Source of the DNA: Escherichia coli
GTDB taxonomy: Bacteria; Pseudomonadota; Gammaproteobacteria; Enterobacterales; Enterobacteriaceae
DNA: 64,000 nt
NCBI RefSeq assembly: GCF_013315695.1
Contig: NZ_CP054353.1
Strand: one strand, 5' to 3'
How positions within the stretch are numbered: position 1 is the stretch's first letter; every line of letters starts with the position of its first letter. Both the position numbers and the translations under genes were made by a program. Below, piece after piece: positions 25,063 through 60,445 of the stretch. A model generated the notes under the pieces. That model did no database searches and was not told the origin of the DNA. It saw only the letters and a list, made by a program, of their open reading frames with translations.

Positions 25063-26349
25063 TTACCCCACTTTCTTATGGGGCATACATGGGACACTTT
25101 CAGATAGTCTTTTGTTAAGGAGTTCTATCTGTTCGTGATTGTTGTCTTTCATCCATGCTCCGTAAACATTGAATACCATTTGTGCGTTTGTGTGGCCCAT
25201 CTGGCTTGCGATAAAACTAGGATTAGCTCCAGCGGCAAGTGACCAGCATGCATAAGTATGCCTGGATTGGTACGATTTTCTGTGTCTCAGACCTGCGTGT
25301 TTTAAGATACTTGTCCATGACTCCCTGATGGAGTCAACCTTATAGTGCGGTCCGGAAAACTGCCGCTGTTTTATTACCTGAGGACTAAAAACAAAAGTGC
25401 ATTTATGCACAGTACTTCTCCCATATTCCCTCTGCTTTACCTCTACAGAATGTTGCTTTCCAAGCATGGTCATTTCCGCCTGACTTTTAAGAGCATCAAT
25501 AGCTGGTTGAACCAGATGAATTGTCCTTCCGGTGCCAGCATCGGTTTTTGGTGGAGTGAATTCGCCAAGTTTTGTATAATTCCTACGGATGGTTATAGTC
25601 CTTGCTTTAAGATCTATATCTTCCCATGCCAGCGATACCAGCTCCCCGTGACGAATACCCGTGTATACAGCGAGAATCCACAGGTTTTTTGTTTGTTGAT
25701 GACGGCAAGCCTCAATAAAACGAATAAATTCGTCACGGGTGAGAGGATCTGGTTTTACCTTGGACTTTTTTAAGGGAGCCAGACCGTTAAATGGGTTTCC
25801 TGAGGTATAACCATTATCTGTTGCAAATTGAAACATTCCAGCTATGGTTGTCATATAGTAGTTTACCGTGACCACTGAGCGCCCTTTTATGGAAGAAGTC
25901 TTTCCATTAGAAAGTTTTTGGTAACCGGTCAACAAATCTCTCCTTACGAAAAGTAAATCCTCTTTTGTTATGGATGAAACCAGTTTTTTTTCACCTAACA
26001 TTGGTAACATGTTTTTAATTACTGACTGGTAACGGTTAAGTGCATTCGCACAAATCTCAATTTTCTTAAGGTCCAACCATTTTTCCGAAAGTGCCTTAAC
26101 GGTTATCTCTCTTTTTCCCAGACCAAAGTGTTTCAGGTTAGGGGAATTAGGGAACTGCGCGGAGTAGTCGAAACTCCCCATTCTGATTGCAAAACAAACG
26201 GAAGTGCGAAGTTCACCAGCGATCTTCCGGTTTTTGGCTGTGTCAGGAACACCGAGGTTTTCTCTGACACGTTTGCCATTATAGTGAAACCATATACGGA
26301 GTGATCCTCCATGGTTTTCAACGCCTGTCGGGTATGATGCGTTACTCAT
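25063..26349 (-). CDS. int: tyrosine-type site-specific integrase
   Basis: 428-aa ORF with R (GIRHGEL), HxxR (SRHTYA) and catalytic Y (VFNVYGAW) motifs; adjacent to the attL junction. Confidence 0.9.
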   Translation of the reverse strand: MSNASYPTGVENHGGSLRIWFHYNGKRVRENLGVPDTAKNRKIAGELRTSVCFAIRMGSFDYSAQFPNSPNLKHFGLGKREITVKALSEKWLDLKKIEICANALNRYQSVIKNMLPMLGEKKLVSSITKEDLLFVRRDLLTGYQKLSNGKTSSIKGRSVVTVNYYMTTIAGMFQFATDNGYTSGNPFNGLAPLKKSKVKPDPLTRDEFIRFIEACRHQQTKNLWILAVYTGIRHGELVSLAWEDIDLKARTITIRRNYTKLGEFTPPKTDAGTGRTIHLVQPAIDALKSQAEMTMLGKQHSVEVKQREYGRSTVHKCTFVFSPQVIKQRQFSGPHYKVDSIRESWTSILKHAGLRHRKSYQSRHTYACWSLAAGANPSFIASQMGHTNAQMVFNVYGAWMKDNNHEQIELLNKRLSESVPCMPHKKVG

Positions 26350-27120: not shown

Positions 27121-27639
27121 TCATTGATTCACCTCCTGCCTGTCGTCCGGCATTCGCTCACTACAGCTTATCCAACCATCCGGAGTTACCGGAGAGCTGG
27201 TTGACGCTTCCGGGATTTTCCGAAAATTATTGGTTGACGAATCTTTATTTTCCCGAAAGTTTCCGGACTGAAGCATGGCTTCGCGGCAATCGTTCCAGCC
27301 TGTAGCGTATGCAGCCGCTTTGCTGCTGCCTTCAACTGGCGCATCCTGCCAATACATTTCTTCCGGCACTACCGGCGCTGGAGGGGCGGCGTAAATGCCC
27401 TCTATCACTAAATGTTTGCGCTCAAAATCATCTGGCTCTCGATGATATACGTAACTCCAATCACCAAGGTTATCATTGCGCCTGCAACGGAAACCTATCG
27501 GCTCTGCTTCCAGCGATGCCAGAGCAATTCGTGCCAGTTCTTCCGCTTCTTCTGCTGGCAGTACAACGTTGCTACCCGGTCCGTATGTTTCGCGCCACTG
27601 CTTGATTGTCAGCAGTCGCTCTTTGGTAATAGTGATCAT
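27121..27639 (-). CDS. hypothetical early-left protein
   Basis: 172-aa ORF, 4-bp overlap (translational coupling) with the upstream gene. Confidence 0.5.
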   Translation of the reverse strand: MITITKERLLTIKQWRETYGPGSNVVLPAEEAEELARIALASLEAEPIGFRCRRNDNLGDWSYVYHREPDDFERKHLVIEGIYAAPPAPVVPEEMYWQDAPVEGSSKAAAYATGWNDCREAMLQSGNFRENKDSSTNNFRKIPEASTSSPVTPDGWISCSERMPDDRQEVNQ

Positions 27640-28151
27640 GCCGCGTTTCCTTCTTTCTTATTAACAATTACACCGTCATATATTTCATTAAGGTGCCCTC
27701 TCAACTCCATGCGCCTTAATGCAGATAACATGTAATCGCATTCAACCTGCTTATTCCCGGTAAATGGCTTATCGTCAGGATTACCCCAACAGCAATTACC
27801 CCTGGGCCATCCATGTACTTTCCGTACTCTTCCGTTAACAACGTGAAGTAATCCCCAGCCGGGAGGTAAATCCTCAACTGAAATAATTTCCGGCTCACTA
27901 ATAAAGAATCGCCAGTCGCCCATGCCAAGTGAGGGATTTTTACGGAAACGCTTTTTTCTATCTGCCAACAAGTCAGCACGAGAACACTTCGCCTCTATCA
28001 GGCATGATGCTGAATTTCTGAATCCCATAGCATCTGGCTGTTCTCCGGTACTGGTTACAGCAACAAAGCGGTCATGAAAGCAAACCTTGAACCCGTTGCG
28101 CTTAAGGAACTTGTACGCAATCTGACAGAGTTCGTGGTGTGTTAACGCCAT
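27636..28151 (-). CDS. PD-(D/E)xK-type nuclease-like protein
   Basis: 171-aa ORF with an E-x-PD...IEAK arrangement (GEQPDAMGF ... CLIEAKCS) typical of restriction-endonuclease-fold nucleases. Confidence 0.5.
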   Translation of the reverse strand: MALTHHELCQIAYKFLKRNGFKVCFHDRFVAVTSTGEQPDAMGFRNSASCLIEAKCSRADLLADRKKRFRKNPSLGMGDWRFFISEPEIISVEDLPPGWGLLHVVNGRVRKVHGWPRGNCCWGNPDDKPFTGNKQVECDYMLSALRRMELRGHLNEIYDGVIVNKKEGNAA

Positions 28152-28988: not shown

Positions 28989-29184
28989 GCTTCACCTCGA
29001 TAGGCTTGATGGTATCGATCAGCAGTCGGCGGCGAGTATTTTCTGCAAAGTGGCGGCGTCCGGTTTCTTTGTGGTAAAACTCGTTTTTTCCGACGACCCA
29101 CATCCGCTTTGTCTGGTGCAGTTTTTTTACCTGCGGACCGTCTCGGGTGATAACAATTCCTGTATGAGTTTTTATCACGCTCAT
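28981..29184 (-). CDS. hypothetical small basic protein
   Basis: 67-aa ORF overlapping its neighbours. Confidence 0.4.
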   Translation of the reverse strand: MSVIKTHTGIVITRDGPQVKKLHQTKRMWVVGKNEFYHKETGRRHFAENTRRRLLIDTIKPIEVKHV

Positions 29185-29543
29185 TTTTTATTCTTCGGTG
29201 CTTTCGGCATTACTGCCCAGTGAGTGATATTGACGTTTTCAAGGTCCCCGACCTGAAATGTCCACAGCCATTCTCCGGTTTCTTTTTGTCCCCAGGTGTA
29301 CCAGAGAGAACGCCAGCCAATTAGCCAGCCTTCTCCGTTAGCATCAAATAACAGAACACTTTCATTTGCTGGTGGCAGTTCAGCTGACACTGGTATTATT
29401 TTGTTTTCCAGTGCCGCACATTTAGCTTCAAGCGCGTCGAATTTACGTAACAGGTACTCAGCATTTGTTTCATTCACTTTCAGATCTCGCGGTACACATT
29501 TCCCGCGAAGAAACCCTTCCATTTCGAAAACATTCATGCGCAT
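29181..29543 (-). CDS. DUF551-like phage protein
   Basis: 120-aa ORF with GEGWLIGWRSLWYTWGQ tryptophan-rich motif. Confidence 0.45.
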   Translation of the reverse strand: MRMNVFEMEGFLRGKCVPRDLKVNETNAEYLLRKFDALEAKCAALENKIIPVSAELPPANESVLLFDANGEGWLIGWRSLWYTWGQKETGEWLWTFQVGDLENVNITHWAVMPKAPKNKK

Positions 29544-30139
29544 TTGCGTAACTCCGATAAATCGTTAAAACGTTCCATAAACATCCCGTAGGCATGACCC
29601 GGTGCCAGTGGAATCACGTTGAACATCTCTGTTGCCGGGATGCCTTCCAGTACTGGCCAGAAAGAGCCATCATCAAGCCCGAGATCGCGGCGTTCGGTTG
29701 CCAGCATGATGAGATCGGCATATTTCACAGGCGTGCGCATAACCGGGGGTAACCCGTATTTCTCACGGATTACGGCGTCTATTTTTTCTTCCATCCGTTT
29801 ATAGTCAGGAAGAAGGCGTTTCAGTGGAGCGGGAATATCCTGGCAATACGCTTCTGTTGCATCATGCATTAACGCTTCAAAAGCAAATTCCTGCGGCACC
29901 AGCTGGCTGCAAAGCACCGCATGCTGGGCGACACTGTAGAAGTGTGAAAGATGTCCTGCAAAGCGACAGATATTTGAAAGGGAAACCGCGATATCGTTAA
30001 TCACGATGTCGTCTTTATTTATCTTGTCATAATAAAAATGCTTCCCGGAAAAAGTTTTAATAAATGACATTTCGTTCTCCACTTTATATGCGCTGCACCG
30101 CTCTGAATTTTGATTGCAGCAATCCAGCCCATTTGACAT
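29534..30139 (-). CDS. HD-domain metal-dependent phosphohydrolase (5'-nucleotidase-like)
   Basis: 201-aa ORF with H...HD motif (SVAQHAVLCS ... ALMHDATEAY). Confidence 0.55.
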   Translation of the reverse strand: MSNGLDCCNQNSERCSAYKVENEMSFIKTFSGKHFYYDKINKDDIVINDIAVSLSNICRFAGHLSHFYSVAQHAVLCSQLVPQEFAFEALMHDATEAYCQDIPAPLKRLLPDYKRMEEKIDAVIREKYGLPPVMRTPVKYADLIMLATERRDLGLDDGSFWPVLEGIPATEMFNVIPLAPGHAYGMFMERFNDLSELRKCA

Positions 30140-30160
30140 GGGATGATTGCTGCAATTTTT

Positions 30161-31078
30161 TTAAGTTGTTGGATTTTGGCTTTTATCTTCTTTGTAAGAA
30201 AGAAGGTCACACATCAAATTAACTACCTTGCTGAATTGGAAAAGGTCAGCGCCAGTCTGATGACGCCACTGGAATGCTTTATCATCTTCATCATTAAATG
30301 TCTGAGATTGAGTATTGATGCGCGAAAAATGGAAATTTTCGGTAAGAATGAAGGTCACACCGCAACCGGATAACTCCATTTTATCAGCAGTGAAACTACT
30401 ACTAAGGCTATCGGCCAGTTCGCTTTGAATTGACTCATGCTCAGCTGAGTAGCGAATAATTTCCTTTTGATCTGCGTAGCGTGATAGCTGAATATAATTT
30501 CCGACAGTGAATCCTTCAAATGCATTGGCTGCACCATTGATGTAGTTATTCAGGCGTGTAGTCAGTCCATTCTTGATATCACTGATGTTGATTGTTTCTG
30601 TTTTCACTGAACCGACAACCTTAATCAGCATTGCGCATACCATACCGGCTATTATTTTATTGGTTGTGTTGATTACCAATAATTTCTCATCAGTGCTGTA
30701 CAATGCAAGAATCAGAGTAGACTTAACAAATGCCTGTTTGCATAGATCTACTCGTACGTTATCAATAATGGCCAGTCGTTCGGCACGCTTTAATTTATTC
30801 CCGGACATATTTTCGGTTGTTTGGATTCGAGAATTAGCTTCTTTCATGACGACATGTCGGGGAATTATTTTCTGATCATGACGGATTACCATTGCGTACC
30901 CACCAGATATCGGAGTTACCAGTTCACCAGTGACAGGATTCTCTACAAAAGAGGACCGTGAAAATTCTGTTTCCCCGATTTCAGAATAAGGGAGTTCGAG
31001 AAGATGACCTTCAATAGCCTGTATACTAGGTAATGTTGCTCGGTACACAATTGCGTTACGAAATTTTGGTAATTTCAT
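30161..31078 (-). CDS. RdgC-like recombination-associated protein
   Basis: Long ORF 30161..31279; likely start MKLPKFRNAIVYRATLP at 31078 with a GAGGAAAA RBS; RdgC-like N-terminus; AT-rich. Confidence 0.5.
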   Translation of the reverse strand: MKLPKFRNAIVYRATLPSIQAIEGHLLELPYSEIGETEFSRSSFVENPVTGELVTPISGGYAMVIRHDQKIIPRHVVMKEANSRIQTTENMSGNKLKRAERLAIIDNVRVDLCKQAFVKSTLILALYSTDEKLLVINTTNKIIAGMVCAMLIKVVGSVKTETINISDIKNGLTTRLNNYINGAANAFEGFTVGNYIQLSRYADQKEIIRYSAEHESIQSELADSLSSSFTADKMELSGCGVTFILTENFHFSRINTQSQTFNDEDDKAFQWRHQTGADLFQFSKVVNLMCDLLSYKEDKSQNPTT

Positions 31079-31692
31079 TCTATTTTCCTCTGCACAATGT
31101 ATTAGTTTCTCCACAAAACAGAGAAGAACACCTGCGGTGGCAGCCGCCCGGATGGATTGGGTTATGAGCCCGTCGTCCGGTGATGCTCTTCTCTGTTTTG
31201 TAAAAAGAGCGGTACCAGCCGGAAGCAAGTGTACAAACTGGTACCGCCAAAGCAGTGGCTGTTGTGGTGGGGTTGTCACTCAGGCGTATGGTCAACCTGA
31301 CAACCCGGTGTCCTCAACGGGGAAAGAGTAACCCCGCCATACTTACCGCCGCGCCATTTCGCGGATTACCACAACGCTGAGAGCACTTAGCCAGTTACGG
31401 CACCACACTTTGTCGCGGTTCCATAAATGCCCTCATCGTTGCACCCTGGTCTCTTCCCAGGCGTCAAACCGAATCGCCACGCTGGTTAGGCGTCTTATCA
31501 GCATCCTCATTGACTTGCACATTCCGGCTATCTGGTTTGTTTGCCCGAGCAAGGAGTGGATTGTCCCCTTTAACGTCCCCAGACCGCTAACGACGCATGT
31601 GCCATACGCCGTGTTACAACCAAATTTTGTTAGTACCTTGTTTGTAGGTCTGGAGAGAAAGATAAAATGAAGTTGCGCATTATGCAAGTGTT

Positions 31693-31710
31693 TTATTGCG
31701 AGATAAGCAA
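31693..31710. promoter_or_regulatory. candidate OL operator
   Basis: ttattgcgagataagcaa is a near-copy of ttattgcgcgttaagcaa in the cI-cro intergenic region. Confidence 0.5.
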
Positions 31711-31719
31711 TTTGGTGGG

Positions 31720-31745
31720 TAATGAAAAGCCACCTTCTGGTGGCT
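31720..31745 (-). terminator. intrinsic terminator downstream of cI
   Basis: agccacc-ttct-ggtggct hairpin followed (minus strand) by a U-rich tract, about 25 bp past the cI stop. Confidence 0.55.
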
Positions 31746-31766
31746 AATTGATGTTGAGGTAGGGGG

Positions 31767-32459
31767 TTAATTGTGTCGCTTAAGGGTCTGTGACTGACTG
31801 ATTAAGACCTTTCCAAAGACCATAAACCGGTGTTCGTTTTCGCTGGTAATTCCCCATTCGCGGTAAATCTGATTATCAGAAATTACCAGCAGTTTATCAG
31901 GTATCATTTGCAGTCGTTTGACGTAAATTTTATCATCAAAACCAAATACATATATACCATCCCCATCAAACTGATTGATACTGATATCAACGAAGATGAG
32001 ATCTCCTGGCTCAATGGTTGGACACATACTGTCCCCACGAACGTTGATAACTTTAATGTGATTTGCTGGTCGTCCACCAAACATCGATACAGCATTATCA
32101 GTTCTGTATTCAATGGCATGAATCACATCAATGACATCACCGCCCTGGATAAGGCCATTTCCCGCACTGGCACTGACATCCAGCATTTCAATACGGAATA
32201 CATCCTTCACCTGCGTAACATCCTCACTAATACTGTTTTTACATACAGTATTACTTTTGAGGTCTGAGGTAAAGAGATCAGCAATATCAACACCTAAGCT
32301 CCTGGCAATATTACTCAGGGCTTGTTCAGTGAATTGTTTCTGCTTACCTGTTTCGAGGCGCGAGATATTCGCCGCATCCACTCCTATTGCTTCAGCGAGA
32401 TCGGCGATTTTCATGTTCTTCGCCTGGCGAAGTTGTCTGACTCGATTTCCTATGTTCAT
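31767..32459 (-). CDS. cI: CI-like phage repressor (HTH plus S24 LexA-like peptidase domain)
   Basis: 230-aa ORF with N-terminal HTH (IADLAEAIGVDAANISRLETGK) and C-terminal S24 motifs (GDSMCPTI ... KRL); divergent from cro. Confidence 0.85.
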   Translation of the reverse strand: MNIGNRVRQLRQAKNMKIADLAEAIGVDAANISRLETGKQKQFTEQALSNIARSLGVDIADLFTSDLKSNTVCKNSISEDVTQVKDVFRIEMLDVSASAGNGLIQGGDVIDVIHAIEYRTDNAVSMFGGRPANHIKVINVRGDSMCPTIEPGDLIFVDISINQFDGDGIYVFGFDDKIYVKRLQMIPDKLLVISDNQIYREWGITSENEHRFMVFGKVLISQSQTLKRHN

Positions 32460-32556
32460 GCGTTTATTACATTTCTTTATTGCGCGTTAAGCAAATCAAC
32501 TTGCGCAAAATATTTGCGTGAAATAATATGCTCATCACGCAATATGTGGAGGTTAT
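32460..32556. promoter_or_regulatory. OR/PR/PRM-like switch region
   Basis: 97-bp AT-rich divergent intergenic region with repeated TTGCGC-containing operator-like half-sites. Confidence 0.6.
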
Positions 32557-32817
32557 ATGCAATCACCATTACGGAATGTGCGTAAGGCGCACGGATTTAC
32601 TTTGCAGCATGTTGCTGCGGGCGTTCAGGTCAATCCAGCGACGCTGAGTCGTATTGAAAGACTGGAACAAATTCCATCTATCGATCTTGCAGAACGTCTG
32701 GCCAATTTTTTTAAGGGTGAAATCAGCGAAATGCAGATTCTTTATCCGGCACGTTTTCAATCTAGCCAAAACCAGAATGGGTTTAAACCACAGGAACAGG
32801 AGGTAAGCCGTGGGTAA
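32557..32817 (+). CDS. cro: Cro-like HTH (XRE-family) regulator
   Basis: 86-aa ORF with HTH LQHVAAGVQVNPATLSRIE; first gene rightward of the switch. Confidence 0.75.
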   Translation: MQSPLRNVRKAHGFTLQHVAAGVQVNPATLSRIERLEQIPSIDLAERLANFFKGEISEMQILYPARFQSSQNQNGFKPQEQEVSRG

Positions 32818-33367
32818 GCATCATTGGAAAGTGGAAAAACAGCCTGAGTGGTACGTGAAAGCTGTCAGAAAAACTATCGCGGCGTTGCCGGGGGGTTACG
32901 CTGAAGCTGCTGAGTGGCTGGATGTAACAGAGAACGCATTATTCAACCGCCTTCGTGCAGATGGCGATCAGATTTTCCCGCTGGGATGGGCAATGGTTTT
33001 ACAGCGTGCGGCTGGCACTCACTACATTGCGGATGCTGTCGCACAGTCTGCTGGTGGGGTGTTCGTATCGCTTCCTGAAATTGAGGCAGTAGAGAACGCC
33101 GATATAAACCAGCGCCTGCTGGAAGTCATTGAACAGATCGGCAGTTATTCCAGACAGATTCGTTCAGCAATCGAAGACGGTGTAGTGGAACCGCATGAGA
33201 AGACAGCAATTAACGACGAACTGTATCTTTCAATTTCGAAGCTCCAGGAGCATGCAGCACTGGTCTACAAAATCTTCTGCGCTCCAGAAAAGAGTAACGC
33301 CCGCGAGTGTGCAGCTCCGGGCGTCGTGGCGTCGATTGCTTCTGGTTGTGGAGAAACTAACGCATGA
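32810..33367 (+). CDS. hypothetical regulator in the cII position (possibly YmfL-like)
   Basis: 185-aa ORF overlapping the cro stop and the next start. Confidence 0.4.
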   Translation: MGKHHWKVEKQPEWYVKAVRKTIAALPGGYAEAAEWLDVTENALFNRLRADGDQIFPLGWAMVLQRAAGTHYIADAVAQSAGGVFVSLPEIEAVENADINQRLLEVIEQIGSYSRQIRSAIEDGVVEPHEKTAINDELYLSISKLQEHAALVYKIFCAPEKSNARECAAPGVVASIASGCGETNA

Positions 33368-34509
33368 ATAGTTTAACGGCAAATAACCGTTTGTCGCAAC
33401 AGCTGGTGGTCAGCGTCGCTGAACACCTGTTGTTACGGCATGAATGCAGATTACCAAATCACCTGGCTGTAAGTAACCACAGAGAACTTTACCTGACTGT
33501 GGGGGGCGAGTTGTGCAGGAACTTAACCGCTGGTTTCGTGACGGAAGAGGGCTTTATGTCCATGTTATTCGTTGGGAGCCAGAAACACAGCGCGTTATCT
33601 ATCTTCGCAAAGACTACCCGCATGAGTGCTTTAGTCCTTTGTGGAAATTCAGGCGTGATTTTGTTGAGTGTGAAGGACCACCAGCATATTGATTCTGCAA
33701 TTCCGGGACGTTACACTGTTCAGGCACCTTATAAAGCGGGTGCCGGGATTGGCGTCCTGAAATTCGCACATGCGCATAACCGCGCTTCAGCGGTTTTTTT
33801 GCGCACGTTTCCTCACATCCAAATTATGGTGGGGCGTGCAGGGGCATCGAAAGATGCGCCGGGGTCATGTGCGACCGGTTACGCCAACCCTGTACGTCTC
33901 ACCACCTCTGTGATTGGCGTCCCATGTGGTGAGTTTTCAAAATTCGCACATGAGGATGTCACTATGGCAACCACCCCTACCCAAACTCACCCTAAAATTG
34001 ATGTTATCCATGGGAAGGCTGTTACCTCTTCTTTGGCCGTTGCCGAATATTTCTGCAAGCAGCACAAAAACGTTATTCAAAAAATCCAGACGCTTGAGTG
34101 CTCTGTTGAATTCACTGAGCTGAATTTTCAGCCCAGTGATTACACCGATTGCACAGGCCGCAAACTCCCTTGTTACCAAATCACCCGCGACGGTTTTGCG
34201 TTTCTTGCCATGGGCTTCACGGGGAAACGTGCTGCCCGGTTCAAAGAGGCATACATCAATGCCTTTAACCAGATGGAGAAACAGCTTTCAAATCCCTCTG
34301 TACTGAGCGACGTTGCACATAACGCCAGCGTTCTCTATTCCTACATTTCATCAATTCATCAGGTCTGGCTGCAGCAGCTTTATCCTATGTTGGCAAAAGC
34401 CGAATCTCCGCTGGCTGTTAGCTTGTATGACTATATTAATGATGCTTCGGCGCTGGCCTGCCTCATAAATTTGTCGCTGAATCCTTCAGAGGTAAGGGGG
34501 CGTAAATGA
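33364..34509 (+). CDS. Rha-family phage regulatory protein, copy 1 (variable N-terminal region plus Rha domain)
   Basis: C-terminal ITRDGFAFLAMGFTGKRAARFKEAYINAFNQME matches the Rha-domain signature as I recall it; possible internal start near 33965 (MATTPTQ...). Confidence 0.65.
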   Translation: MNSLTANNRLSQQLVVSVAEHLLLRHECRLPNHLAVSNHRELYLTVGGELCRNLTAGFVTEEGFMSMLFVGSQKHSALSIFAKTTRMSALVLCGNSGVILLSVKDHQHIDSAIPGRYTVQAPYKAGAGIGVLKFAHAHNRASAVFLRTFPHIQIMVGRAGASKDAPGSCATGYANPVRLTTSVIGVPCGEFSKFAHEDVTMATTPTQTHPKIDVIHGKAVTSSLAVAEYFCKQHKNVIQKIQTLECSVEFTELNFQPSDYTDCTGRKLPCYQITRDGFAFLAMGFTGKRAARFKEAYINAFNQMEKQLSNPSVLSDVAHNASVLYSYISSIHQVWLQQLYPMLAKAESPLAVSLYDYINDASALACLINLSLNPSEVRGRK

Positions 34510-35387
34510 TCCGGAATATTTTCAAACTGTTTACCAATCGCCACCAGCATATTGATTCTGCAATTCCGGGACGTTACACTGTTCAGGCACCTTATAAAGC
34601 GGGTGCCGGGATTGGCGTCCTGAAATTGTCAACGGCGATGTATGACGCGCCAGCGTCTTTTTTATCGTCCGCATTTGCTCACATCCAGATTATGGTGGGC
34701 TGGGCGGGGGCACCGAAAGGTGCGCCGGTCTCCGTTGACGCCGGTTACGCCAACCCCGTCCAGTTCACCACCAGTGAAATTGGCGTTTCCGGTGGTGGAA
34801 GTTTTTCACTGTCAACGGAGGCTGCCATCATGGCTACGATCCCAGCCCTCACTCAACCTGAAATCACCATTGACAACGGCCAGGCCGTTACCACTTCTTT
34901 GGCTGTTGCCAACTTCTTCTCCAAGCGTCACGACGATGTGCTGAAAAAGATCCGCACTCTGGATTGTTCCCCTGAGTTTTGTGCCCGCAATTTTGCGGAG
35001 ACATCGATTTCGGTAAATCAACCGAACGGTGGTACACGCAAGCTCCTTTGCTATCAAATCACACGAGACGGTTTTGCGTTTCTTGCTATGGGTTTCACGG
35101 GTAAACGTGCTGCCCGGTTCAAAGAGGCATACATCAATGCCTTTAACCAGATGGAAAAACTGCTTTCAAAGCCATCCACGCTGAGCGATGCCGCAGATAA
35201 CGCCAGCGTGCTTTACTCCCACCTGTCGGTAATCCACAAGGTCTGGCTGCAGCAGCTTTATCCCATGTTGGCAAAAGCCGAATCCCCGCTGGCTGTAAGT
35301 CTGTATGACCGCATCAACGACGCGGCGCTACTGGCCAGTCTCATAAATTTGTCGCTGAACCCTTCAGAGGTAAGGGGGCGTAAATGA
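34506..35387 (+). CDS. Rha-family phage regulatory protein, copy 2 (tandem paralogue)
   Basis: 293-aa ORF; same Rha C-terminal motif; N-terminus MIRNIFKLFTNRHQHIDSAIPGRY repeats a segment inside copy 1. Confidence 0.65.
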   Translation: MIRNIFKLFTNRHQHIDSAIPGRYTVQAPYKAGAGIGVLKLSTAMYDAPASFLSSAFAHIQIMVGWAGAPKGAPVSVDAGYANPVQFTTSEIGVSGGGSFSLSTEAAIMATIPALTQPEITIDNGQAVTTSLAVANFFSKRHDDVLKKIRTLDCSPEFCARNFAETSISVNQPNGGTRKLLCYQITRDGFAFLAMGFTGKRAARFKEAYINAFNQMEKLLSKPSTLSDAADNASVLYSHLSVIHKVWLQQLYPMLAKAESPLAVSLYDRINDAALLASLINLSLNPSEVRGRK

Positions 35388-42691: not shown

Positions 42692-42767
42692 GGCCCTTTA
42701 GCTCAGTGGTGAGAGCGAGCGATTCATAATCGCCAGGTCGCTGGTTCAAATCCAGCAAGGGCCACCA
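42692..42767 (+). tRNA. tRNA with CAU anticodon (Ile2/Met-type; ileZ-like)
   Basis: Cloverleaf GGCCCTT-TA-GCTCAGTGGTGAGAGC..anticodon loop TTCATAA..GGTTCAAATCC..AAGGGCC-A-CCA. Confidence 0.85.
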
Positions 42768-42774
42768 TCACATA

Positions 42775-42851
42775 CCGCCATTAGCTCATCAGGATAGAGC
42801 GCCAGCCTTCGAAGCTGGTTGCGCGGGGTTCGAGTCCTCGATGGCGGTCCA
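42775..42851 (+). tRNA. tRNA-Arg (anticodon UCG; argN-like)
   Basis: Acceptor CCGCCAT/ATGGCGG, anticodon loop CTTCGAA, T-loop GGTTCGAGTCC, encoded CCA. Confidence 0.8.
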
Positions 42852-42864
42852 TTATCTGTACCCT

Positions 42865-42941
42865 GCGTTATTAGCTCAGCCGGACAGAGCAATTGCCTTC
42901 TAAGCAATCGGTCACTGGTTCGAATCCAGTACAACGCGCCA
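42865..42941 (+). tRNA. tRNA-Arg (anticodon UCU; argO/argU-like)
   Basis: GCGTTATTAGCTCAGCCGGACAGAGC..anticodon loop CTTCTAA..GGTTCGAATCC..CGCCA, close to host argU. Confidence 0.8.
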
Positions 42942-47577: not shown

Positions 47578-48015
47578 ATGAACCGCGTACTGTGCGTGGT
47601 CATCATTGCCCTGCTGGTGGCCTGTGGTGCGCTTAGTCTGGGGCTGAATCATTACCGTGATAACGCCATGACCTACAAAGAGCAGCGCGATAAAGCCACA
47701 TCCATCATCGCTGATATGCAGAAGCGTCAACGTGATGTAGCAGAACTCGACGCCAGATACACAAAGGAGCTTGCTGATGCTAACGCGACTATCGAAAGTC
47801 TCCGTGCTGATGTTTCTGCTGGTCGTAAGCGCCTGCAAGTCGCCGCCACCTGTGCAAAGTCAACGACCGGAGCCAGCAGCATGGGCGATGGAGAAAGCCC
47901 AAGACTTACAGCAGATGCTGAACTCAATTATTACCGTCTCCGAAGTGGAATCGACAAGATAACCGCGCAGGTTAACTACCTGCAGGAATACATCAGGACG
48001 CAATGCCTGAAATAA
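47578..48015 (+). CDS. i-spanin Rz
   Basis: 145-aa ORF with N-terminal TM and coiled-coil periplasmic domain; Rz1 embedded. Confidence 0.8.
   Translation: MNRVLCVVIIALLVACGALSLGLNHYRDNAMTYKEQRDKATSIIADMQKRQRDVAELDARYTKELADANATIESLRADVSAGRKRLQVAATCAKSTTGASSMGDGESPRLTADAELNYYRLRSGIDKITAQVNYLQEYIRTQCLK
47771..47962 (+). CDS. o-spanin Rz1 (lipoprotein) embedded in Rz in the +1 frame
   Basis: Lipobox LVVSAC followed by a proline-rich segment; fully inside Rz. Confidence 0.7.
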   Translation: MLMLTRLSKVSVLMFLLVVSACKSPPPVQSQRPEPAAWAMEKAQDLQQMLNSIITVSEVESTR

Positions 48016-48216
48016 TTTTTTTGCAAATCACAAAGTCAATTTAATGAGCCTCGCGATGCGGGGCTTTTTGCAATAAATGCGTACCGCAACGCATGTTTTT
48101 TACACCGAACCTGCCCCTTTGGAATGGGCCTTTGAGGATACCAGTTAGTGCTGGCGAGCCTCGGTGGGCTGGTTTCCTATGCGGCAAAGGTTCATTTCAA
48201 ATGGTAGGTAAACGTT

Positions 48217-48738
48217 ATGAATATCGTGCCACTTAATTACAAAGGTGAAATTGTCAGTTTCAACACTGATGGTTGGATCAACGTCACAGGTGTTGCTGAG
48301 AGATTTGGAAAACGCATTGATAACTGGATGCGTTTGGCAGAAACGCTTGAATACGTTCGTGCTTTAGACGAAGCGTTGACCGGGAAAGAATCTCAAATTT
48401 TACATCCCTCACAATCGAGGTATGTAAAAACCAGCAAGGCACGAAAGGACAGGGGTGGTGGTACGTGGCTACATCCAAAACTTTCAGTTGCATTTGCCCG
48501 TTGGTGTGATGCTCGTTTTGCTGTGTGGTGCGACCTGCACATTGATAGTCTGCTTCGCGGTGAACTGACTGAGCAGCAGAAATATGAGCAAGCATGTCGC
48601 ATTCGCGATGACCGGAAATCAAAAGCCAGCAATGGGGCAAGAGAGATGGCTCGCTGGCGATGGGATAAGCCGGTTATTGAAGCAAATGTTGAGTACTGGC
48701 GCGAGCAACTGCAGTTGACTCTCGATATCGCGTGCTGA
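48217..48738 (+). CDS. KilA-N-like domain protein
   Basis: 173-aa ORF with WLHPKLSVAFARWCDARFAVW motif. Confidence 0.45.
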   Translation: MNIVPLNYKGEIVSFNTDGWINVTGVAERFGKRIDNWMRLAETLEYVRALDEALTGKESQILHPSQSRYVKTSKARKDRGGGTWLHPKLSVAFARWCDARFAVWCDLHIDSLLRGELTEQQKYEQACRIRDDRKSKASNGAREMARWRWDKPVIEANVEYWREQLQLTLDIAC

Positions 48739-49719
48739 TGGCAAACGCAAAACTGCGTTATCGGAAAAATCAAAGCATTACGAGAACTGAGCAACGGCTA
48801 TCCATTACAAAGCCCATCTACGGGTGGGCTTGATAATGAAACCGGAATTTATTCTTGGCAACCAGTTACGGCAGTACCACGAAACAACCCAAGCCAGTAA
48901 GTGGGGAAATAACACTGGCAGCCACTGAAAGATGAAGCTCCTGCCTTAAGGCAAAAAAGATTCTTTGTGGTGGCGGACTGATGGAAAGACATCGGTTATT
49001 GCAGAGGCCATTCAATGAGTGGTCTCGACAATGGCTTATACCCTACACGGGATAACTTAACTGATATCCCTTTTAAAGGATAAAGGTATTCAAGCCTGAC
49101 ACATCATGCGCTGTATCGTCGCCGTATTCCTGCATTAACAGAGACCGCAGCCCGACAGGGAGACTCCTCTGCGCGAGTGTGCGGGGATAATCAAAAACGA
49201 TACACACCGGGGTTTACCGCGTTAACGGAGCGCGGCGTTGTCCCCTCATAGTCGCCTGTCCGGTGCGATGGTGGAAGAAACCGGATGTTTATCACTATTA
49301 ATTGATGACACAGAAATGGATTCATTGAATTTCAGCACGTTTTTGTATTCGTGTTATTGAACATCTGTTTATTTTACTTTTAACATATTGATAATAAAAA
49401 GAGCTGTAAATCTTTAGATGAGTCGATTTTGTCCGGGGAAGTTCAAATGGATTTTATGCTGACGGTTTCTGGTGTGGTTATCCTGTCCATTGCTTATACT
49501 GCAGATAAATATGGCTGCCATTTGTTATCACGTATTGGCGCTTATTGTTCGTTGATGCTGATTTTCTCGTCGCTTTTTTTTGAGTAAGTTATATTAATTA
49601 TAACAAATAATTTTCTGTGTTATTTTTTCAGGCTATCCCGTCAGAGGGGAAGCCTGTACTGCCGGGGAGCGAATGGAAAACTGATGTGTCCGGTAACTGC
49701 GTGTTCTGTGAACACCATG

Positions 49720-49905
49720 TTACTTAATTATGTAATTCATACCCGAACTCTCTGTTGACAGCCTTCTTCTGCAGGCTTCAATAACCCACGCTGAAAAGTT
49801 TCCTGAACCTTTCAGATCAAGAGCGATGTTAATTTGTTCAATCATCTGGTTTGGAAATCGGATGTTGCGGGTTGTTGTTCTGCGGGTTCTGTTCTTTGAT
49901 GACAT
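49720..49905 (-). CDS. small ribbon-helix-helix-like DNA-binding protein (YlcI/DUF3950-like)
   Basis: 61-aa ORF MSSKNRTRRTTTRNIRFPNQMIEQINIALDLKGSGNFSAWVIEACRRRL. Confidence 0.45.
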   Translation of the reverse strand: MSSKNRTRRTTTRNIRFPNQMIEQINIALDLKGSGNFSAWVIEACRRRLSTESSGMNYIIK

Positions 49906-50112
49906 AATGTTTCCCCATATTCAGTGTTGCTGATTTGTATTATCTGAAGTTGCTTTTACGTTAATTTGATGCAGATCAATTAATACGATACCTGCGTCAT
50001 AATTGATTATTTCTCGTGGTTTGATGGCGTACACACATGTTGTGATAAACCTTATATAGATGATAATCATTATCATTTTCGTGGGTCCTTTCCGGCGATC
50101 CGACCGGTTACG

Positions 50113-50124
50113 GGGCGGCGACCT
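50113..50124 (+). other. cosN cohesive-end site
   Basis: gggcggcgacct followed by cgcggattttcactatttatgaaaattttccgg, matching the lambda left cohesive end GGGCGGCGACCT as recalled. Confidence 0.8.
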
Positions 50125-50308
50125 CGCGGATTTTCACTATTTATGAAAATTTTCCGGGATCCATGTCCGGTTTCTCTGCAAGTTAACCATATGAAAAATA
50201 TAAAAACATGCTTTCCATGAACCGGGCATGCGCAAAAAATAGACACTAAAACCGGACATGACCGGTTTTGTTGTGATTGTGAGGTGAGAGTTTTTTGCGA
50301 GGTGAGGA

Positions 50309-50818
50309 GTGGCTACGCAGACTGAAGTTGCCAGGCATTTAAGTCTGACCGATCGCCAGCTTCGCAGATTGCAGAAATTGCCGGGTGCCCCGATATCGAA
50401 TAAGCGAGGGCAACTGGATCTGGATGCCTGGCGCGATTTTTACATATCGTATCTGAGAAGAAGTAAAAACGATGTGCCTGATGGCGATAGCGAAGACGAC
50501 TATGAGGAGAAATTGCTTATTGCCAGATGGGAACTGACAGCAGAACAGGCTGTTACACAGCAGTTAAAAAATGAGGTGTCAAAAGGAAAACTTATTGACA
50601 CCGGGTTCTGTATTTTTGCCCTCAGCAAGCTGGCAATGGCGTTATCCAGTACGCTTGATTCCATCCCTTTATCCATGCAGCGACAGTTTCCTGATTTAAC
50701 ACCGCGCCATCTTGACCATCTGAAAACCCTTATTGCGAAGGGGGCAAATCAGTGTGCGCGGGCGGGGGATAAATTACCGGATTTACTCGATGAATATATC
50801 AGAGCAACAACTGAATAA
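50309..50818 (+). CDS. terminase small subunit (Nu1-like)
   Basis: 169-aa ORF (GTG start); C-terminal similarity to lambda Nu1. Confidence 0.8.
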   Translation: MATQTEVARHLSLTDRQLRRLQKLPGAPISNKRGQLDLDAWRDFYISYLRRSKNDVPDGDSEDDYEEKLLIARWELTAEQAVTQQLKNEVSKGKLIDTGFCIFALSKLAMALSSTLDSIPLSMQRQFPDLTPRHLDHLKTLIAKGANQCARAGDKLPDLLDEYIRATTE

Positions 50819-52707
50819 TATGATGAGTGCTGTCACAACAGCATTACAGCCCCTGATAAGGGCATTGCCGGTGACGCCAGTTGAATGGGCTGATCAAAAT
50901 TATTATCTGCCTAAAGAATCTTCATATGGTGAGGGAGAATGGAAAACGCTGCCGTTCCAGATCGCCATCATGAACAGCATGGGGAATGATCAGATCCGGA
51001 CTGTTAATCTGATTAAATCTGCCCGTGTTGGCTATACAAAGATGTTGCTGGGGGTGGTCGGGTATTTTATTGAGCATAAATCCCGAAACAGTCTGCTTTT
51101 TCAGCCCACGGATTCTGCCGCTGAAGATTTTATGAAGTCTCACGTGGAGGCGACGATTCGGGATGTGCCATGTCTGAAAGACCTTTCTCCATGGCTGGGG
51201 CGTAAACATCGTGACAATACTCTCACGCTGAAACGCTTTTCATCGGGTGTGGGCTTCTGGTGCCTGGGCGGCGCTGCCGCCAAAAACTACCGTGAAAAAT
51301 CCGTGGACGTGGTCTGCTATGACGAACTTTCCTCGTTCGAACCGGATGTCGAAAAAGAGGGTTCGCCAACCCTGCTTGGGGATAAACGTATTGAGGGCTC
51401 TGTATGGCCCAAATCCATTCGCGGCTCGACGCCTAAAATCAAAGGCACCTGCCAGATCGAAAAAGCGGCCAACGAGTCGGCGCATTTCATGCGTTTTTAT
51501 GTGCCCTGCCCGCACTGTGGGGAGGCGCAGTATCTGAAATTTGGCGATGAGTCCACGCCTTTTGGCCTTAAATGGGAGAAGGACAGCCCCGAAAGCGTTT
51601 TCTACCTCTGTGAACATCATGGCTGCGTGATCCATCAGTCTGAGCTTGACCAGAGCAACGGGCGGTGGATCTGTGAAAACACGGGGATGTGGACCCGCGA
51701 CGGTCTGACGTTTTTCAGCGCTGCGGATAATGAAATTCCGCCGCCGCGCTCCATCACATTCCATATCTGGACGGCGTACAGTCCGTTCACCACCTGGGTA
51801 CAGATTGTCTATGACTGGCTGGATGCACTGAAAGATCCCAACGGCCTGAAAACCTTTGTGAACACCACGCTGGGCGAGACCTGGGAAGAGGCCGTGGGCG
51901 AAAAACTCGATCACCAGGTGCTGATGGATAAGGTTGTGCGTTACACGGCTGCGGTGCCTTCCCGGGTGGTTTATCTGACGGCGGGCATTGACTCGCAGCG
52001 AAACCGTTTTGAGATGTATGTCTGGGGATGGGCTCCGGGAGAGGAAGCCTTTCTGGTGGATAAAATCATCATTATGGGGCGTCCCGATGAGGAAGAGACG
52101 CTGTTACGTGTGGATGTGGCGATCAACAAAAAATACCGCCATGCAGACGGAACCGAAATGACCATTTCCCGTGTCTGCTGGGACACCGGGGGGAATTGTC
52201 TATCAGAGGTCAAAAAAACACGGTGTTTTCCGGGTGCTGCCGGTAAAAGGTGCATCTGTTTATGGCAAGCCGGTGATCACCATGCCAAAAACCCGCAATC
52301 AGCGGGGCGTGTATCTGTGCGAAGTGGGGACGGACACCGCAAAAGAAATTCTCTATGCCCGTATGAAAGCCGATCCCACGCCTGCGGATGAAGCCACGTC
52401 GTATGCCATCCGTTTTCCTGATGATCCGGAGATTTTTTCGCAGACAGAGGCGCAGCAACTGGTGGCGGAAGAGCTTGTGGAGAAGTGGGAAAAAGGAAAG
52501 ATGCGTCTGCTGTGGGATAACAAAAAGCGGCGTAACGAAGCGCTGGACTGCCTGGTGTATGCCTACGCGGCATTACGTGTGTCCGTGCAACGCTGGCAGC
52601 TTGATCTGGCTGTACTGGCAAAATCCCGGGAAGAAGAGACGACCCGGCCAACCCTTAAAGAACTGGCAGCGAAGCTGTCCGGAGGAGTGAATGGTTACAG
52701 TCGCTGA
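50790..52707 (+). pseudogene. terminase large subunit (lambda A-like) with a frameshift at 52188-52193
   Basis: N-terminal frame (MNISEQQLNN...RVCWDTGG) and C-terminal frame (GIVYQRSKKHGVFRVLPVKGASVYGKPV...) both match lambda gpA as recalled, but are offset by one base at a run of six G. Confidence 0.8.
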
Positions 52708-52897
52708 ACTGCAGGCGCTGCGTCAGGCGCGCCTTGATTTATTAACCGGTAAACGGGTGGTGTCTGTCCAGAAAGATGGTCGCAGAATTGAATATACGGC
52801 AGCTTCTCTGGATGAGCTTAACCGGGCGATCAATGATGCGGAGTCGGTACTGGGGACAACCCGCCGTCGCCGTCGTCCGCTGGGAGTGAGGTTATGA
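52691..52897 (+). CDS. head-tail joining protein W
   Basis: 68-aa ORF ...LTGKRVVSVQKDGRRIEYTAASL... close to lambda gpW. Confidence 0.85.
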   Translation: MVTVAELQALRQARLDLLTGKRVVSVQKDGRRIEYTAASLDELNRAINDAESVLGTTRRRRRPLGVRL

Positions 52898-55981: not shown

Positions 55982-56017
55982 AGTCAGTGCTGAACATCAA
56001 TACGAGGTTTTTACAAT

Positions 56018-56368
56018 ATGGTGACGAAAACCATCACTGAACAGCGTGCGGAAGTACGTATTTTTGCCGGTAATGATCCGGCTCACACCGCCACAGGCAG
56101 CAGCGGGATTTCCTCGGCAACACCGGCACTGACACCCCTGATGCTGGATGGGGCCACCGGGAAACTGGTGGTCTGGGACGGACAGAAAGCCGGTAGTGCG
56201 GTTGGCATACTGGTACTGCCGCTTGAAGGCACAGAGGAGGTGCTGACCTATTACAAGTCGGGGACCTTTGCGACGGAGGCAATCCGCTGGCCTGAAAGTG
56301 TGGATGAACACAAAAAGGCCAACGCCTTTACCGGCAGTGCCCTGAGTCACGCGGCGCTGCCGTAACAC
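56018..56368 (+). CDS. head decoration protein D
   Basis: 115-aa ORF ...DPAHTAT...TPLMLD...YYKSGTF... lambda gpD-like. Confidence 0.85.
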
Positions 56369-56422
56369 GTTATCAGGCCACCGCGTTGGCCTGACTGATT
56401 TCTTAATGAAAGGAACTGATTT

Positions 56423-57451: not shown

Positions 57452-57502
57452 TCCGTGAGCGGGGGCGAAATGCCCCCGTGTCTTTTTTCACAGGAGGCTG
57501 AG

Positions 57503-58232: not shown

Positions 58233-58247
58233 ACGCAGGGTGAAATT

Positions 58248-59215: not shown

Positions 59216-59222
59216 GGACGAT

Positions 59223-59969: not shown

Positions 59970-59987
59970 AGAGCTGAGAGATAAGCG

Positions 59988-60419: not shown

Positions 60420-60445
60420 ACTTTGCCCTCAGACTGGCGCGTGAG

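What the first reader, a model, noticed from the sequence alone, without database searches (positions are those of the whole stretch)
29534..31078. HD-domain phosphohydrolase and RdgC-like gene as the first early-left genes
The two AT-rich genes nearest the candidate PL are an HD-motif hydrolase (nucleotide-pool or signalling-nucleotide cleavage) and an RdgC-like DNA-binding protein. Both would be expressed immediately on induction and could act on host recombination or nucleotide-based immunity. I cannot decide their role from sequence.
Basis: inference. Interest (0 to 1): 0.35.

Follow-up and report, generated by a model that had tools for sequence, protein, structure and literature searches.

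The report
Known prophage genes yfdR and rdgC
The two genes are real but ordinary: one is the already-studied prophage protein YfdR and the other a phage version of the DNA-binding ring protein RdgC; the more interesting thing is an unannotated folded RNA just upstream of them.

Summary
The window is E. coli chromosome carrying an SfV/mEp460-like lambdoid prophage next to mlrA. On the minus strand, 29534-30070 is yfdR. It is 177/178 identical to K-12 CPS-53 YfdR, an HD-domain weak 5'-deoxynucleotidase published as a DnaA binder. 30161-31078 is a diverged phage-type RdgC (Pfam E 2.6e-30; predicted structure matches E. coli RdgC 2OWL full length, TM 0.84). RefSeq already annotates both, and a 2025 paper already noted RdgC homologs at this position in lambdoid phages.

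rdgC is the first ORF left of the immunity region. It sits on an AT-rich 989-bp cassette that replaces yfdP-yfdQ of related phages.

"Expressed immediately" is doubtful. About 590 nt of non-coding RNA with two strong terminator-like hairpins lies between the operator pair just left of cI and rdgC.

That leader holds a ~244-nt structured RNA with five helices, one a pseudoknot. It shows 98% pairing and 12 of 28 pairs with compensatory changes. It has no Rfam match and no annotation, yet occurs in 1830 of 5426 complete E. coli genomes and sits next to phage tRNAs.

No evidence links either protein to nucleotide-based immunity. The finding is ordinary; the leader RNA deserves follow-up.

The parts
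29181..29543 (-). yfdS-like gene (120 aa, DUF551), third gene of the block; overlaps the yfdR stop
   Evidence: 97% identical to K-12 YfdS; PHROG 583
29534..30070 (-). yfdR: HD-domain protein, 178 aa (weak 5'-deoxynucleotidase, DnaA binder)
   Evidence: 177/178 identical to K-12 YfdR; PHROG 318 E 4.8e-111; HD structure 2GZ4 E 1.7e-13; HD..E..D aligned with YfbR; RefSeq call
30161..31078 (-). Phage-type rdgC, 305 aa
   Evidence: Pfam RdgC E 2.6e-30; AF2 model pLDDT 88; Foldseek 2OWL TM 0.84 over 304 columns; RefSeq WP_001571187.1 'RdgC'
30113..31101 (.). AT-rich mosaic cassette (39.8% GC) carrying rdgC; replaces yfdP-yfdQ of mEp460 and K-12 CPS-53
   Evidence: BLAST breakpoints against mEp460; annotation of mEp460 and CPS-53; GC content
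31113..31199 (-). T2: 21-bp stem with a structured loop, followed by UUUUG, just upstream of the rdgC ribosome-binding site (terminator or RNase III-type site)
   Evidence: -47.3 kcal/mol, z -7.5; stays linked to rdgC in strain AVS0542 although the sequence further upstream differs
31201..31248 (-). T1: intrinsic-terminator-like hairpin GGCGGUACCAG..CUGGUACCGC followed by UCUUUUUAC
   Evidence: -21.2 kcal/mol, z -5.0; homologous hairpins with varied stems follow the RNA element in most other phage contexts
31369..31612 (-). Conserved structured RNA: P1, P2, P4, a pseudoknot between the P4 loop and downstream GGUG, P6, and a 3' stem P7
   Evidence: Alignment A3: 98.2% paired, 12/28 pairs compensatory, slid controls 3 or fewer; covariance-model alignment of 28 distinct sequences: 98.3% paired, 9/24 compensatory; no Rfam hit; in 1830/5426 E. 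coli genomes with nothing annotated
31673..31710 (.). OL: two 15-bp operator-like palindromes (TTGCG-N3-TAAGCAA type), centres 23 bp apart; the candidate PL -10 CATAAT at 31684-31679 (minus strand) lies inside the left one
   Evidence: Pattern searches; 19-nt similarity to the OR site; sequence read directly
31728..31745 (-). Terminator hairpin plus UUUUCAUU, 22 nt after the cI stop codon
   Evidence: Scan; -12.3 kcal/mol, z -4.6
31767..32459 (-). CI-type repressor (HTH plus S24 peptidase)
   Evidence: Pfam; RefSeq XRE family regulator
32480..32542 (.). OR: operator-like sites at 32480-32494 (perfect) and 32528-32542 (2 mismatches) between cI and cro

Best explanation
These are the first two protein genes of the repressor-controlled leftward (PL) operon of an SfV/mEp460-like lambdoid prophage.

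Shown:
- Gene 2 is yfdR, essentially the K-12 CPS-53 protein.
- Gene 1 is a diverged, full-length member of the RdgC family.
- rdgC sits on an AT-rich cassette that replaced yfdP-yfdQ.

Inferred from sequence:
- Transcription starts at a CI-controlled promoter within the operator pair at 31673-31710.
- It then runs through a ~590-nt non-coding leader holding a conserved ~244-nt pseudoknotted RNA and two terminator-like hairpins.
- It reaches rdgC-yfdR-yfdS only if those hairpins are read through or processed.

Inferred from homologs:
- The RdgC-like protein forms a ring dimer that clamps double-stranded DNA non-specifically and damps RecA-dependent reactions (strand exchange, and co-protease action on LexA and CI).
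- YfdR binds DnaA domain I and competes with DiaA and DnaB. Together with neighbouring gene products it lowers initiation at oriC. Its dNMP phosphatase activity is weak.

Together they would act as an early module that takes over host DNA transactions, not as immune-signal degraders.
For: Identity:
- Family, structure and pairwise matches for both proteins.
- RefSeq annotates both.

Operon position:
- Terminator directly after cI.
- Two perfect or near-perfect operator palindromes at 31673-31710 matching those at OR. Four of the 12 best matches in 64 kb flank cI.
- No ORF with a ribosome-binding site in the leader.
- rdgC is the first leftward gene beside the immunity region in three other prophages or phages.
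- In Klebsiella phage ST101-KPC2phi6.3 a TTGACC-17-TACATT promoter, the same RNA element and rdgC follow one another directly.

Function by homology:
- YfdR binds DnaA through Phe46. Multicopy yfdQ-R-(S or T) inhibits oriC initiation (PMC4776307).
- E. coli RdgC is a ring dimer that binds DNA and inhibits RecA functions (PMC2965237; PMC11077077).
- The gate residue F120 and three of the four fingertip basic residues are kept.
- Some homologs carry an FtsK-gamma DNA-binding domain.
Against: - No expression data, and the -35 of the candidate PL is poor. TTGCTT lies 20 nt from CATAAT, and the promoter scan did not call it.
- Replication inhibition in K-12 needed yfdQ, which is absent here. YfdQ is not an RdgC-like fold, so RdgC cannot be assumed to substitute for it.
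- Purified YfdR alone did not block initiation in vitro.
- The phage protein is only 18% identical to E. coli RdgC and scores far below the NCBIfam equivalog cutoffs. The horseshoe-interface residue K227 is replaced by Phe.
- The prophage is rich in Chi sites, which fits phages that exploit RecBCD and RecA. That sits badly with a RecA inhibitor.
Confidence: 0.55

Rival explanations
1. RexA-like role. The RdgC homolog is made in the lysogen on the cI transcript. It would act in superinfection exclusion or bias the CI/Cro switch, as proposed for lambdoid RdgC homologs.
For: The proposal is in PMC12315714. Lambda RexA shares domain-level structural homology with RdgC (PMC11077077). The gene lies just left of cI and on the same strand.
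Against: - A terminator follows cI directly. An operator pair and two further strong hairpins lie between cI and rdgC.
- In strain AVS0542 a ParA gene and an opposite-strand gene separate rdgC from the repressor.
- The model matches the full three-domain RdgC (TM 0.84). RexA is not among the 50 best PDB matches.
- There is no rexB-like partner; the next gene is yfdR.
Confidence: 0.15
2. The HD protein degrades signalling or pool nucleotides to defeat nucleotide-based immunity, and RdgC blocks a DNA-sensing defence.
For: The catalytic HD motif is intact. The gene sits early in the operon. The YfdR family is widespread in phages, with 333 records.
Against: - No PADLOC or related match.
- The studied, near-identical protein is a low-affinity dNMP phosphatase and DnaA binder.
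- The literature searches turned up no report linking RdgC to anti-defence.
Confidence: 0.07
3. Passenger genes with no current selected role: mosaic cargo of a decaying prophage.
For: The closest genome has an IS-disrupted integrase and several pseudogenes in this operon. K-12 carries yfdR in a cryptic prophage whose deletion has no phenotype. The rdgC cassette is rare, in 23 of 5426 genomes.
Against: - Both reading frames are intact. rdgC is at least 99% conserved across 19 genomes.
- The phage-type RdgC clade is conserved from Enterobacterales to Pseudomonas with many invariant residues.
- The integrase ORF is intact in this window.
Confidence: 0.15

Closest known systems
E. coli K-12 CPS-53 (KpLE1) YfdR and the yfdQ-yfdR-yfdS-yfdT cluster
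   Same: YfdR is 177/178 identical and YfdS 97% identical, in the same gene order and with the same start-stop overlap. The published DnaA-binding and weak nucleotidase properties should carry over.
   Different: yfdP and yfdQ are replaced by rdgC. yfdQ was required for the published replication-inhibition phenotype. Here the operon sits in a prophage that still has its integrase, excisionase and immunity region.
E. coli chromosomal RdgC (PDB 2OWL) and the Pfam PF04381 family
   Same: Same length and three-domain fold (TM 0.84). Gate Phe, finger helices and the basic fingertip K-L-K-R are conserved.
   Different: 18% identity, below all NCBIfam equivalog cutoffs. Horseshoe-interface K227 is Phe. 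The gene is phage-borne at the head of an early operon, and some clade members carry an FtsK-gamma domain.
Lambda RexA
   Same: A phage protein encoded just left of cI, with domain-level structural homology to RdgC and non-specific DNA binding.
   Different: RexA has two domains, pairs with RexB and is co-transcribed with cI. Here the fold is full RdgC, there is no RexB, and a terminator and operators separate it from cI.
E. coli YfbR (HD-domain 5'-deoxynucleotidase) and Atu1052 (PDB 2GZ4)
   Same: HD..E..D catalytic core.
   Different: Similarity to YfbR is limited to about 40 residues around the motif. Pfam YfbR-like scores 24.3, below the cutoff of 25.9. Reported nucleotide affinity is much lower.
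HK022 put RNAs and the lambda N-leader (for the leader RNA upstream of rdgC)
   Same: A promoter-proximal structured RNA at the start of an early operon, followed by terminators. A long hairpin sits just before the first gene, as with the RNase III site in the lambda N leader (the lambda comparison is from my own knowledge).
   Different: About 244 nt with five or more helices and a pseudoknot, against ~70 nt and two stems for put. A single copy, with no PR-side twin. No sequence match to HK022. It also occurs as a self-contained unit next to tRNAs in P1/P7 and Uetakevirus phages.

Membership tests
RdgC (Pfam PF04381) | Profile match above the curated threshold over the whole length | tested here: met
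   106.2 bits against cutoff 25; residues 6-280 on profile positions 3-278 of 298
RdgC (Pfam PF04381) | Three-domain RdgC fold (base, centre, finger/tip) | tested here: met
   AF2 pLDDT 88, pTM 0.82; Foldseek 2OWL_A E 1.4e-18, TM 0.84, rmsd 2.7 over 304 columns; 2OWY TM 0.77
RdgC (Pfam PF04381) | Gate residue F120 and basic fingertip (R97, K98, K100, K101), shown to be needed for dimer stability and DNA loading (PMC2965237) | tested here: met
   F117 aligns with F120; N-K-L-K-R aligns with R-K-L-K-K, so 3 of 4 basic residues are kept
RdgC (Pfam PF04381) | Horseshoe-interface network Q212, E218, K227 | tested here: inconclusive
   The E218 equivalent is kept; K227 aligns with Phe and Q212 with His in an 18%-identity alignment
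RdgC (Pfam PF04381) | Equivalog (same-function ortholog) of chromosomal RdgC by NCBIfam cutoffs | tested here: not met
   Best score 88.4 bits against cutoffs of 227-501. It is a family member, not an ortholog.
RdgC (Pfam PF04381) | Ring dimer, non-specific DNA binding, inhibition of RecA | not testable with these tools
   Needs purified protein
YfdR / HD-domain 5'-deoxynucleotidase | H..HD..D metal-binding residues plus catalytic Glu | tested here: met
   H50, H69-D70, E73, D78 and D119 aligned with 2GZ4 and with YfbR H68-D69-E72-D77
YfdR / HD-domain 5'-deoxynucleotidase | Near-identity to the characterised K-12 YfdR | tested here: met
   177/178 identical
YfdR / HD-domain 5'-deoxynucleotidase | Pfam YfbR-like (PF12917) above the gathering score | tested here: not met
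   24.3 bits against 25.9. This places it in the HD superfamily but as a borderline YfbR-like match.
YfdR / HD-domain 5'-deoxynucleotidase | dNMP phosphatase activity and DnaA domain I binding | not testable with these tools
   Reported for the K-12 protein only (PMC4776307)
Lambda RexA-like exclusion protein | Two-domain RexA architecture, RexB partner, co-transcription with cI | tested here: not met
   Full RdgC fold, with RexA absent from the 50 best PDB matches; the next gene is yfdR; a terminator and operators lie between cI and rdgC
Known anti-phage defence or anti-defence proteins (PADLOC-DB) | Profile match | tested here: not met
   No hit for YfdR, RdgC, YfdS or the 171-aa ORF at E up to 0.01
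HK022 put-type antiterminator RNA (for the leader) | About 70 nt, two stem-loops, paired putL/putR copies | tested here: not met
   244 nt with five or more helices; a single copy in the window; no hit in the HK022 loci. Acting like put is not excluded.
Any Rfam 15 family (for the leader) | Covariance-model match | tested here: not met
   No hit at E up to 10 apart from two chance-level matches to the T2 hairpin

The most novel reading that the evidence does not exclude
The ~244-nt pseudoknotted RNA between the CI-controlled promoter and rdgC is a new class of cis-acting leader RNA. It would work as a processive antiterminator or attenuator and decide whether RNA polymerase passes the T1/T2 hairpins into rdgC-yfdR and the rest of the early-left operon. 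The same module would drive tRNA and moron units in P1-like and Uetakevirus phages. Within that operon, the RdgC cassette would be an alternative partner for YfdR in shutting down host DnaA- and RecA-dependent DNA transactions.
Probability: 0.25. Interest if true: 0.65.

Novelty: already known. Interest (0 to 1): 0.2.

Why it matters
For the two genes, little changes. yfdR is a studied gene. Phage-type rdgC is already annotated and its position in lambdoid phages has been noted. The work here adds four things:
- a corrected yfdR start;
- proof that the protein is a full RdgC fold rather than RexA-like;
- the cassette swap with yfdP-yfdQ;
- sequence evidence that the gene lies in the PL operon rather than on the cI transcript.

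If a phage RdgC does restrain RecA early after induction, it would be a simple viral handle on the SOS response and on induction of co-resident prophages.

The by-product matters more. A covariation-supported, unannotated structured RNA sits in about a third of complete E. coli genomes. It is always close to a promoter and is often joined to phage tRNAs or followed by conserved terminators. It is a good candidate for a new regulatory RNA class in temperate phages.

Tried and rejected
1. YfdQ as a structural analogue of RdgC, tested because the two swap at the same locus. Rejected: BLASTP found nothing, profile-profile probability was 0.2%, and the YfdQ AF2 model (pLDDT 76) has no significant PDB match.
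2. A small N-like gene in the 688-bp gap. Rejected: no ORF of 25 codons or more has an ATG plus a Shine-Dalgarno sequence. The plus-strand ORFs annotated in mEp460 (gp36, gp37) overlap an RNA with compensatory base changes.
3. Upstream extension of rdgC to GTG 31279. Rejected: it has no ribosome-binding site, family alignments start at the ATG, and the mosaic junction is at 31101.
4. Leader as tRNA or tmRNA, or as a known Rfam family. Rejected.
5. HK022 put homology. BLAST and the covariance model found nothing. My attempt to locate putL and putR in the HK022 record by L/R similarity failed, so a direct structural comparison was not made.
6. RNAalifold's long-range pairing of GCACAU with AUGUGC. 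I set it aside in favour of the local P1 hairpin, which carries the G-C to A-U covariation. An alternative conformer is not excluded.
7. Literature search for the RNA by its sequence found nothing.
8. Defence-system membership of either protein: no PADLOC hits.
Full report
**Where the window comes from.** Region 29100-31800 is 100% identical to the E. coli MSB1_4I chromosome. There it lies in a prophage inserted beside mlrA (yehV), downstream of yehW-yohO. The minus-strand layout is:
- integrase 25063-26349, excisionase, then a run of small early genes (DUF4222, DUF551, Ea22-like);
- a yfdS-like gene, the HD gene and the RdgC-like gene;
- a 688-bp gap;
- a CI-type repressor at 31767-32459.

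cro (32557-32817) and a CII-like gene diverge from cI on the plus strand. The flanks of the finding are 95-98% identical to phage mEp460 and relatives such as SfV and the Stx2c phages.

**The HD gene is yfdR.**
- The longest ORF is 29534-30139 (201 aa). ATG 30139 has no Shine-Dalgarno sequence, while ATG 30070 has GGAG 8 nt upstream.
- RefSeq calls the 178-aa form. That form is 177/178 identical to K-12 CPS-53 YfdR. The next gene is 97% identical to YfdS.
- Family matches: PHROG 318 'deoxyribonucleoside 5' monophosphate phosphatase' at E 4.8e-111; the HD structure 2GZ4 at E 1.7e-13; Pfam YfbR-like just under its cutoff, 24.3 against 25.9 bits.
- The catalytic H..HD..E..D residues align with YfbR.
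- Noguchi and Katayama (PMC4776307) report that YfdR has much lower nucleotide affinity than YfbR. They also report that it binds DnaA in a Phe46-dependent way and moderately inhibits DiaA-DnaA and DnaB-DnaA binding. Multicopy yfdQ + yfdR + (yfdS or yfdT) inhibits initiation at oriC, whereas purified YfdR alone does not.
- The family is common in phages, with 333 records.

**The RdgC-like gene is a real but diverged RdgC.**
- ATG 31078 has GAGG 9 nt upstream.
- Profile matches: Pfam RdgC 106 bits, E 2.6e-30, nearly end to end; PHROG 724 E 2.5e-76; PDB 2OWL by sequence E 6e-9.
- NCBIfam equivalog cutoffs are not reached, at 88 bits against 227-501. It is therefore a family member, not an ortholog of the host gene.
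- An AlphaFold2 model built on 43 homologs (pLDDT 88, pTM 0.82) superposes on E. coli RdgC over 304 columns (TM 0.84, rmsd 2.7 A, 18% identity). The next non-RdgC hits are kinetochore CCAN proteins at E of about 0.02. RexA is not among the 50 best matches.
- Of the residues shown experimentally to matter in E. coli RdgC (PMC2965237), the gate Phe120 and three of the four fingertip basic residues are conserved. Horseshoe-interface Lys227 is Phe.
- The clade spans Enterobacterales to Pseudomonas. Some members carry a C-terminal FtsK-gamma DNA-binding domain.
- It occurs in 179 phage records, the closest at 67% identity in Klebsiella phages. It occurs in only 23 of 5426 complete E. coli genomes.

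**A cassette swap.** Compared with mEp460 and K-12 CPS-53, window 30113-31101 (39.8% GC) replaces the yfdP-yfdQ segment. The junctions fall 43 nt upstream of the yfdR start and 23 nt upstream of the rdgC start. Because YfdQ was needed for the published YfdR phenotype, I tested whether YfdQ is a hidden RdgC relative. It is not.

**Where the promoter is.**
- A hairpin plus U-run follows cI by 22 nt (-12.3 kcal/mol, z -4.6).
- Next come two 15-bp palindromes of the type TTGCG-N3-TAAGCAA, at 31696-31710 (perfect) and 31673-31687 (one mismatch), with centres 23 bp apart.
- The same motif occurs between cI and cro at 32480-32494 (perfect) and 32528-32542 (two mismatches). These are four of the 12 best matches in the whole 64 kb.
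- I read these as OL and OR. A good -10 (CATAAT, 31684-31679) lies in the left OL site, but the -35 is poor, so the exact promoter remains an inference.
- rdgC is also the first leftward gene beside the immunity region in E. coli AVS0542, in E. coli 1943 (an 80% variant) and in Klebsiella phage ST101-KPC2phi6.3.
- Together this argues against the suggestion in PMC12315714 that such rdgC genes ride on the cI transcript like rexA.

**Expression is unlikely to be 'immediate'.**
- The ~590 nt between the operators and rdgC have no credible ORF. They fold far better than shuffled controls (z -4.4).
- They end in two strong hairpins. T1 (31248-31201) has a 13-bp stem plus UCUUUUUAC at -21 kcal/mol. 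T2 (31199-31113) has a 21-bp stem at -47 kcal/mol followed by UUUUG, just before an unstructured rdgC ribosome-binding site.
- T1-T2 stay attached to rdgC even where the sequence further upstream differs.

**The leader contains an undescribed structured RNA.**
- *Relatives.* Window 31612-31369 (minus strand) is 78-83% identical to sequences in unrelated phages. In P1/P7 the match lies directly after tRNA-Ile and before ban. In Uetakevirus phages it abuts the 5' end of tRNA-Arg, in its own unit between the portal and terminase genes. An exact 17-mer found at least 120 viral contigs.
- *Covariation.* On 14 representatives, a hand-drawn structure (P1, P2, P4, a pseudoknot between the P4 loop and a downstream GGUG, and P6) gives 98.2% of cells paired. 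Twelve of 28 pairs carry compensatory changes. Versions with the 3' partners slid by 1-3 columns give 28-49% pairing and at most 3 such pairs.
- *Covariance model.* The model finds exactly one copy per locus. It also finds the Klebsiella phage copy that was not used to build it (109 bits). The resulting 28 distinct sequences give 98.3% pairing and 9 of 24 compensatory pairs. A further 3' stem (P7) also varies in a compensatory way by eye (not counted formally).
- *Known families and prevalence.* Rfam 15 has no match. ARAGORN finds no tRNA there. PGAP annotates nothing, although the element is in 1830 of 5426 complete E. coli genomes, including P1-like plasmids. A literature search by sequence found nothing.
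- *Context.* Strong sigma-70 -35 boxes lie about 45 nt upstream in two divergent copies. A T1-type terminator with varied stems, and usually a second terminator, follow in most contexts. In the Klebsiella phage the order is promoter, element, rdgC.
- *Interpretation.* I think a promoter-proximal cis-acting RNA that governs read-through is the most economical reading, but this is not shown. A stable RNA with a role of its own is equally open.

**Function.**
- *Shown:* the identities, folds, order and mosaic structure.
- *Inferred:* CI-controlled transcription, the need for read-through, and the biochemical roles.
- By analogy, phage RdgC would clamp duplex DNA and restrain RecA. YfdR would bind DnaA and may dephosphorylate dNMPs weakly. 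Together they would form an early module directed at host DNA transactions.
- *Cautions:* YfdQ is missing, the RdgC is very diverged, and the prophage is Chi-rich. It has 18 Chi sites in 26757-47620, 14 of them on one strand, against 2.7 expected in the whole window. That pattern is linked in PMC12315714 to phages that use RecBCD-dependent recombination.
- Nothing supports a role in nucleotide-based immunity.

**Verdict.** The finding itself is already known and of low interest. The leader RNA is the item worth carrying forward.

Noticed in passing
window 31369-31612 (minus strand): Conserved ~244-nt structured RNA with a pseudoknot. It has no Rfam family and no annotation, occurs in 1830 of 5426 complete E. 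coli genomes, and is found next to tRNAs in P1/P7 and Uetakevirus phages and in PL leaders of lambdoid phages. Covariation support is strong.
   Followed up: partly
window 31113-31248 (minus strand): Two consecutive strong hairpins with U-runs (T1, T2) directly upstream of rdgC. T1-type hairpins with compensatory stem changes follow the RNA element in most other phages. T2 could be an RNase III site like the one in the lambda N leader.
   Followed up: partly
window 33364-35387 (plus strand); RNAs at 33711-33909 and 34574-34775: Two tandem copies of a P1/P7 immI-like module. Each has isrK (62 bits) and C4 antisense RNA (75-81 bits) with weak a1/b1 target matches, embedded in two consecutive Rha-family antirepressor-like genes. 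This is a duplicated RNA-controlled antirepressor system in the PR operon.
   Followed up: no
window 26757-47620: Chi (GCTGGTGG) is strongly enriched in the early half of the prophage. There are 18 sites, 14 on the plus strand, and none from 47621 to 64000. The whole window has 30 against 2.7 expected. No Red, RecET or Erf recombination module was seen in the early-left operon.
   Followed up: no
L002 (phage mEp460) 5425-5978, equivalent to window ~31137-31690 plus strand: The hypothetical proteins gp36 and gp37 annotated in mEp460 lie antisense to the structured RNA and leader. In the window the corresponding ORF is truncated (86 aa, TTG start). They are probably not genes.
   Followed up: partly
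window 27636-28151 (minus strand): 171-aa early-left ORF with no Pfam or PADLOC match. By eye it has a D..E-x-K pattern (DAMGF...LIEAKC) suggestive of a PD-(D/E)xK nuclease. In the closest genome this stretch is annotated only as a frameshifted fragment.
   Followed up: no
proteins P0109, P0111, P0113, P0117, P0120: Some phage-type RdgC homologs (364-385 aa) carry a C-terminal FtsK-gamma winged-helix domain (PF09397). Pseudomonas phage Skulduggery's copy is annotated 'FtsK/SpoIIIE-like'.
   Followed up: no
window 31269-31364 (minus strand) and L004 (P7) 153-249: A second leader segment is 82% identical to P7 sequence lying just downstream of the C1-controlled Op(ban) operator and upstream of tRNA-Asn. 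Its function is unknown.
   Followed up: no
window 42692-42941 (plus strand): tRNA-Met, tRNA-Arg(TCG) and tRNA-Arg(TCT) cluster in the late region of the prophage.
   Followed up: no
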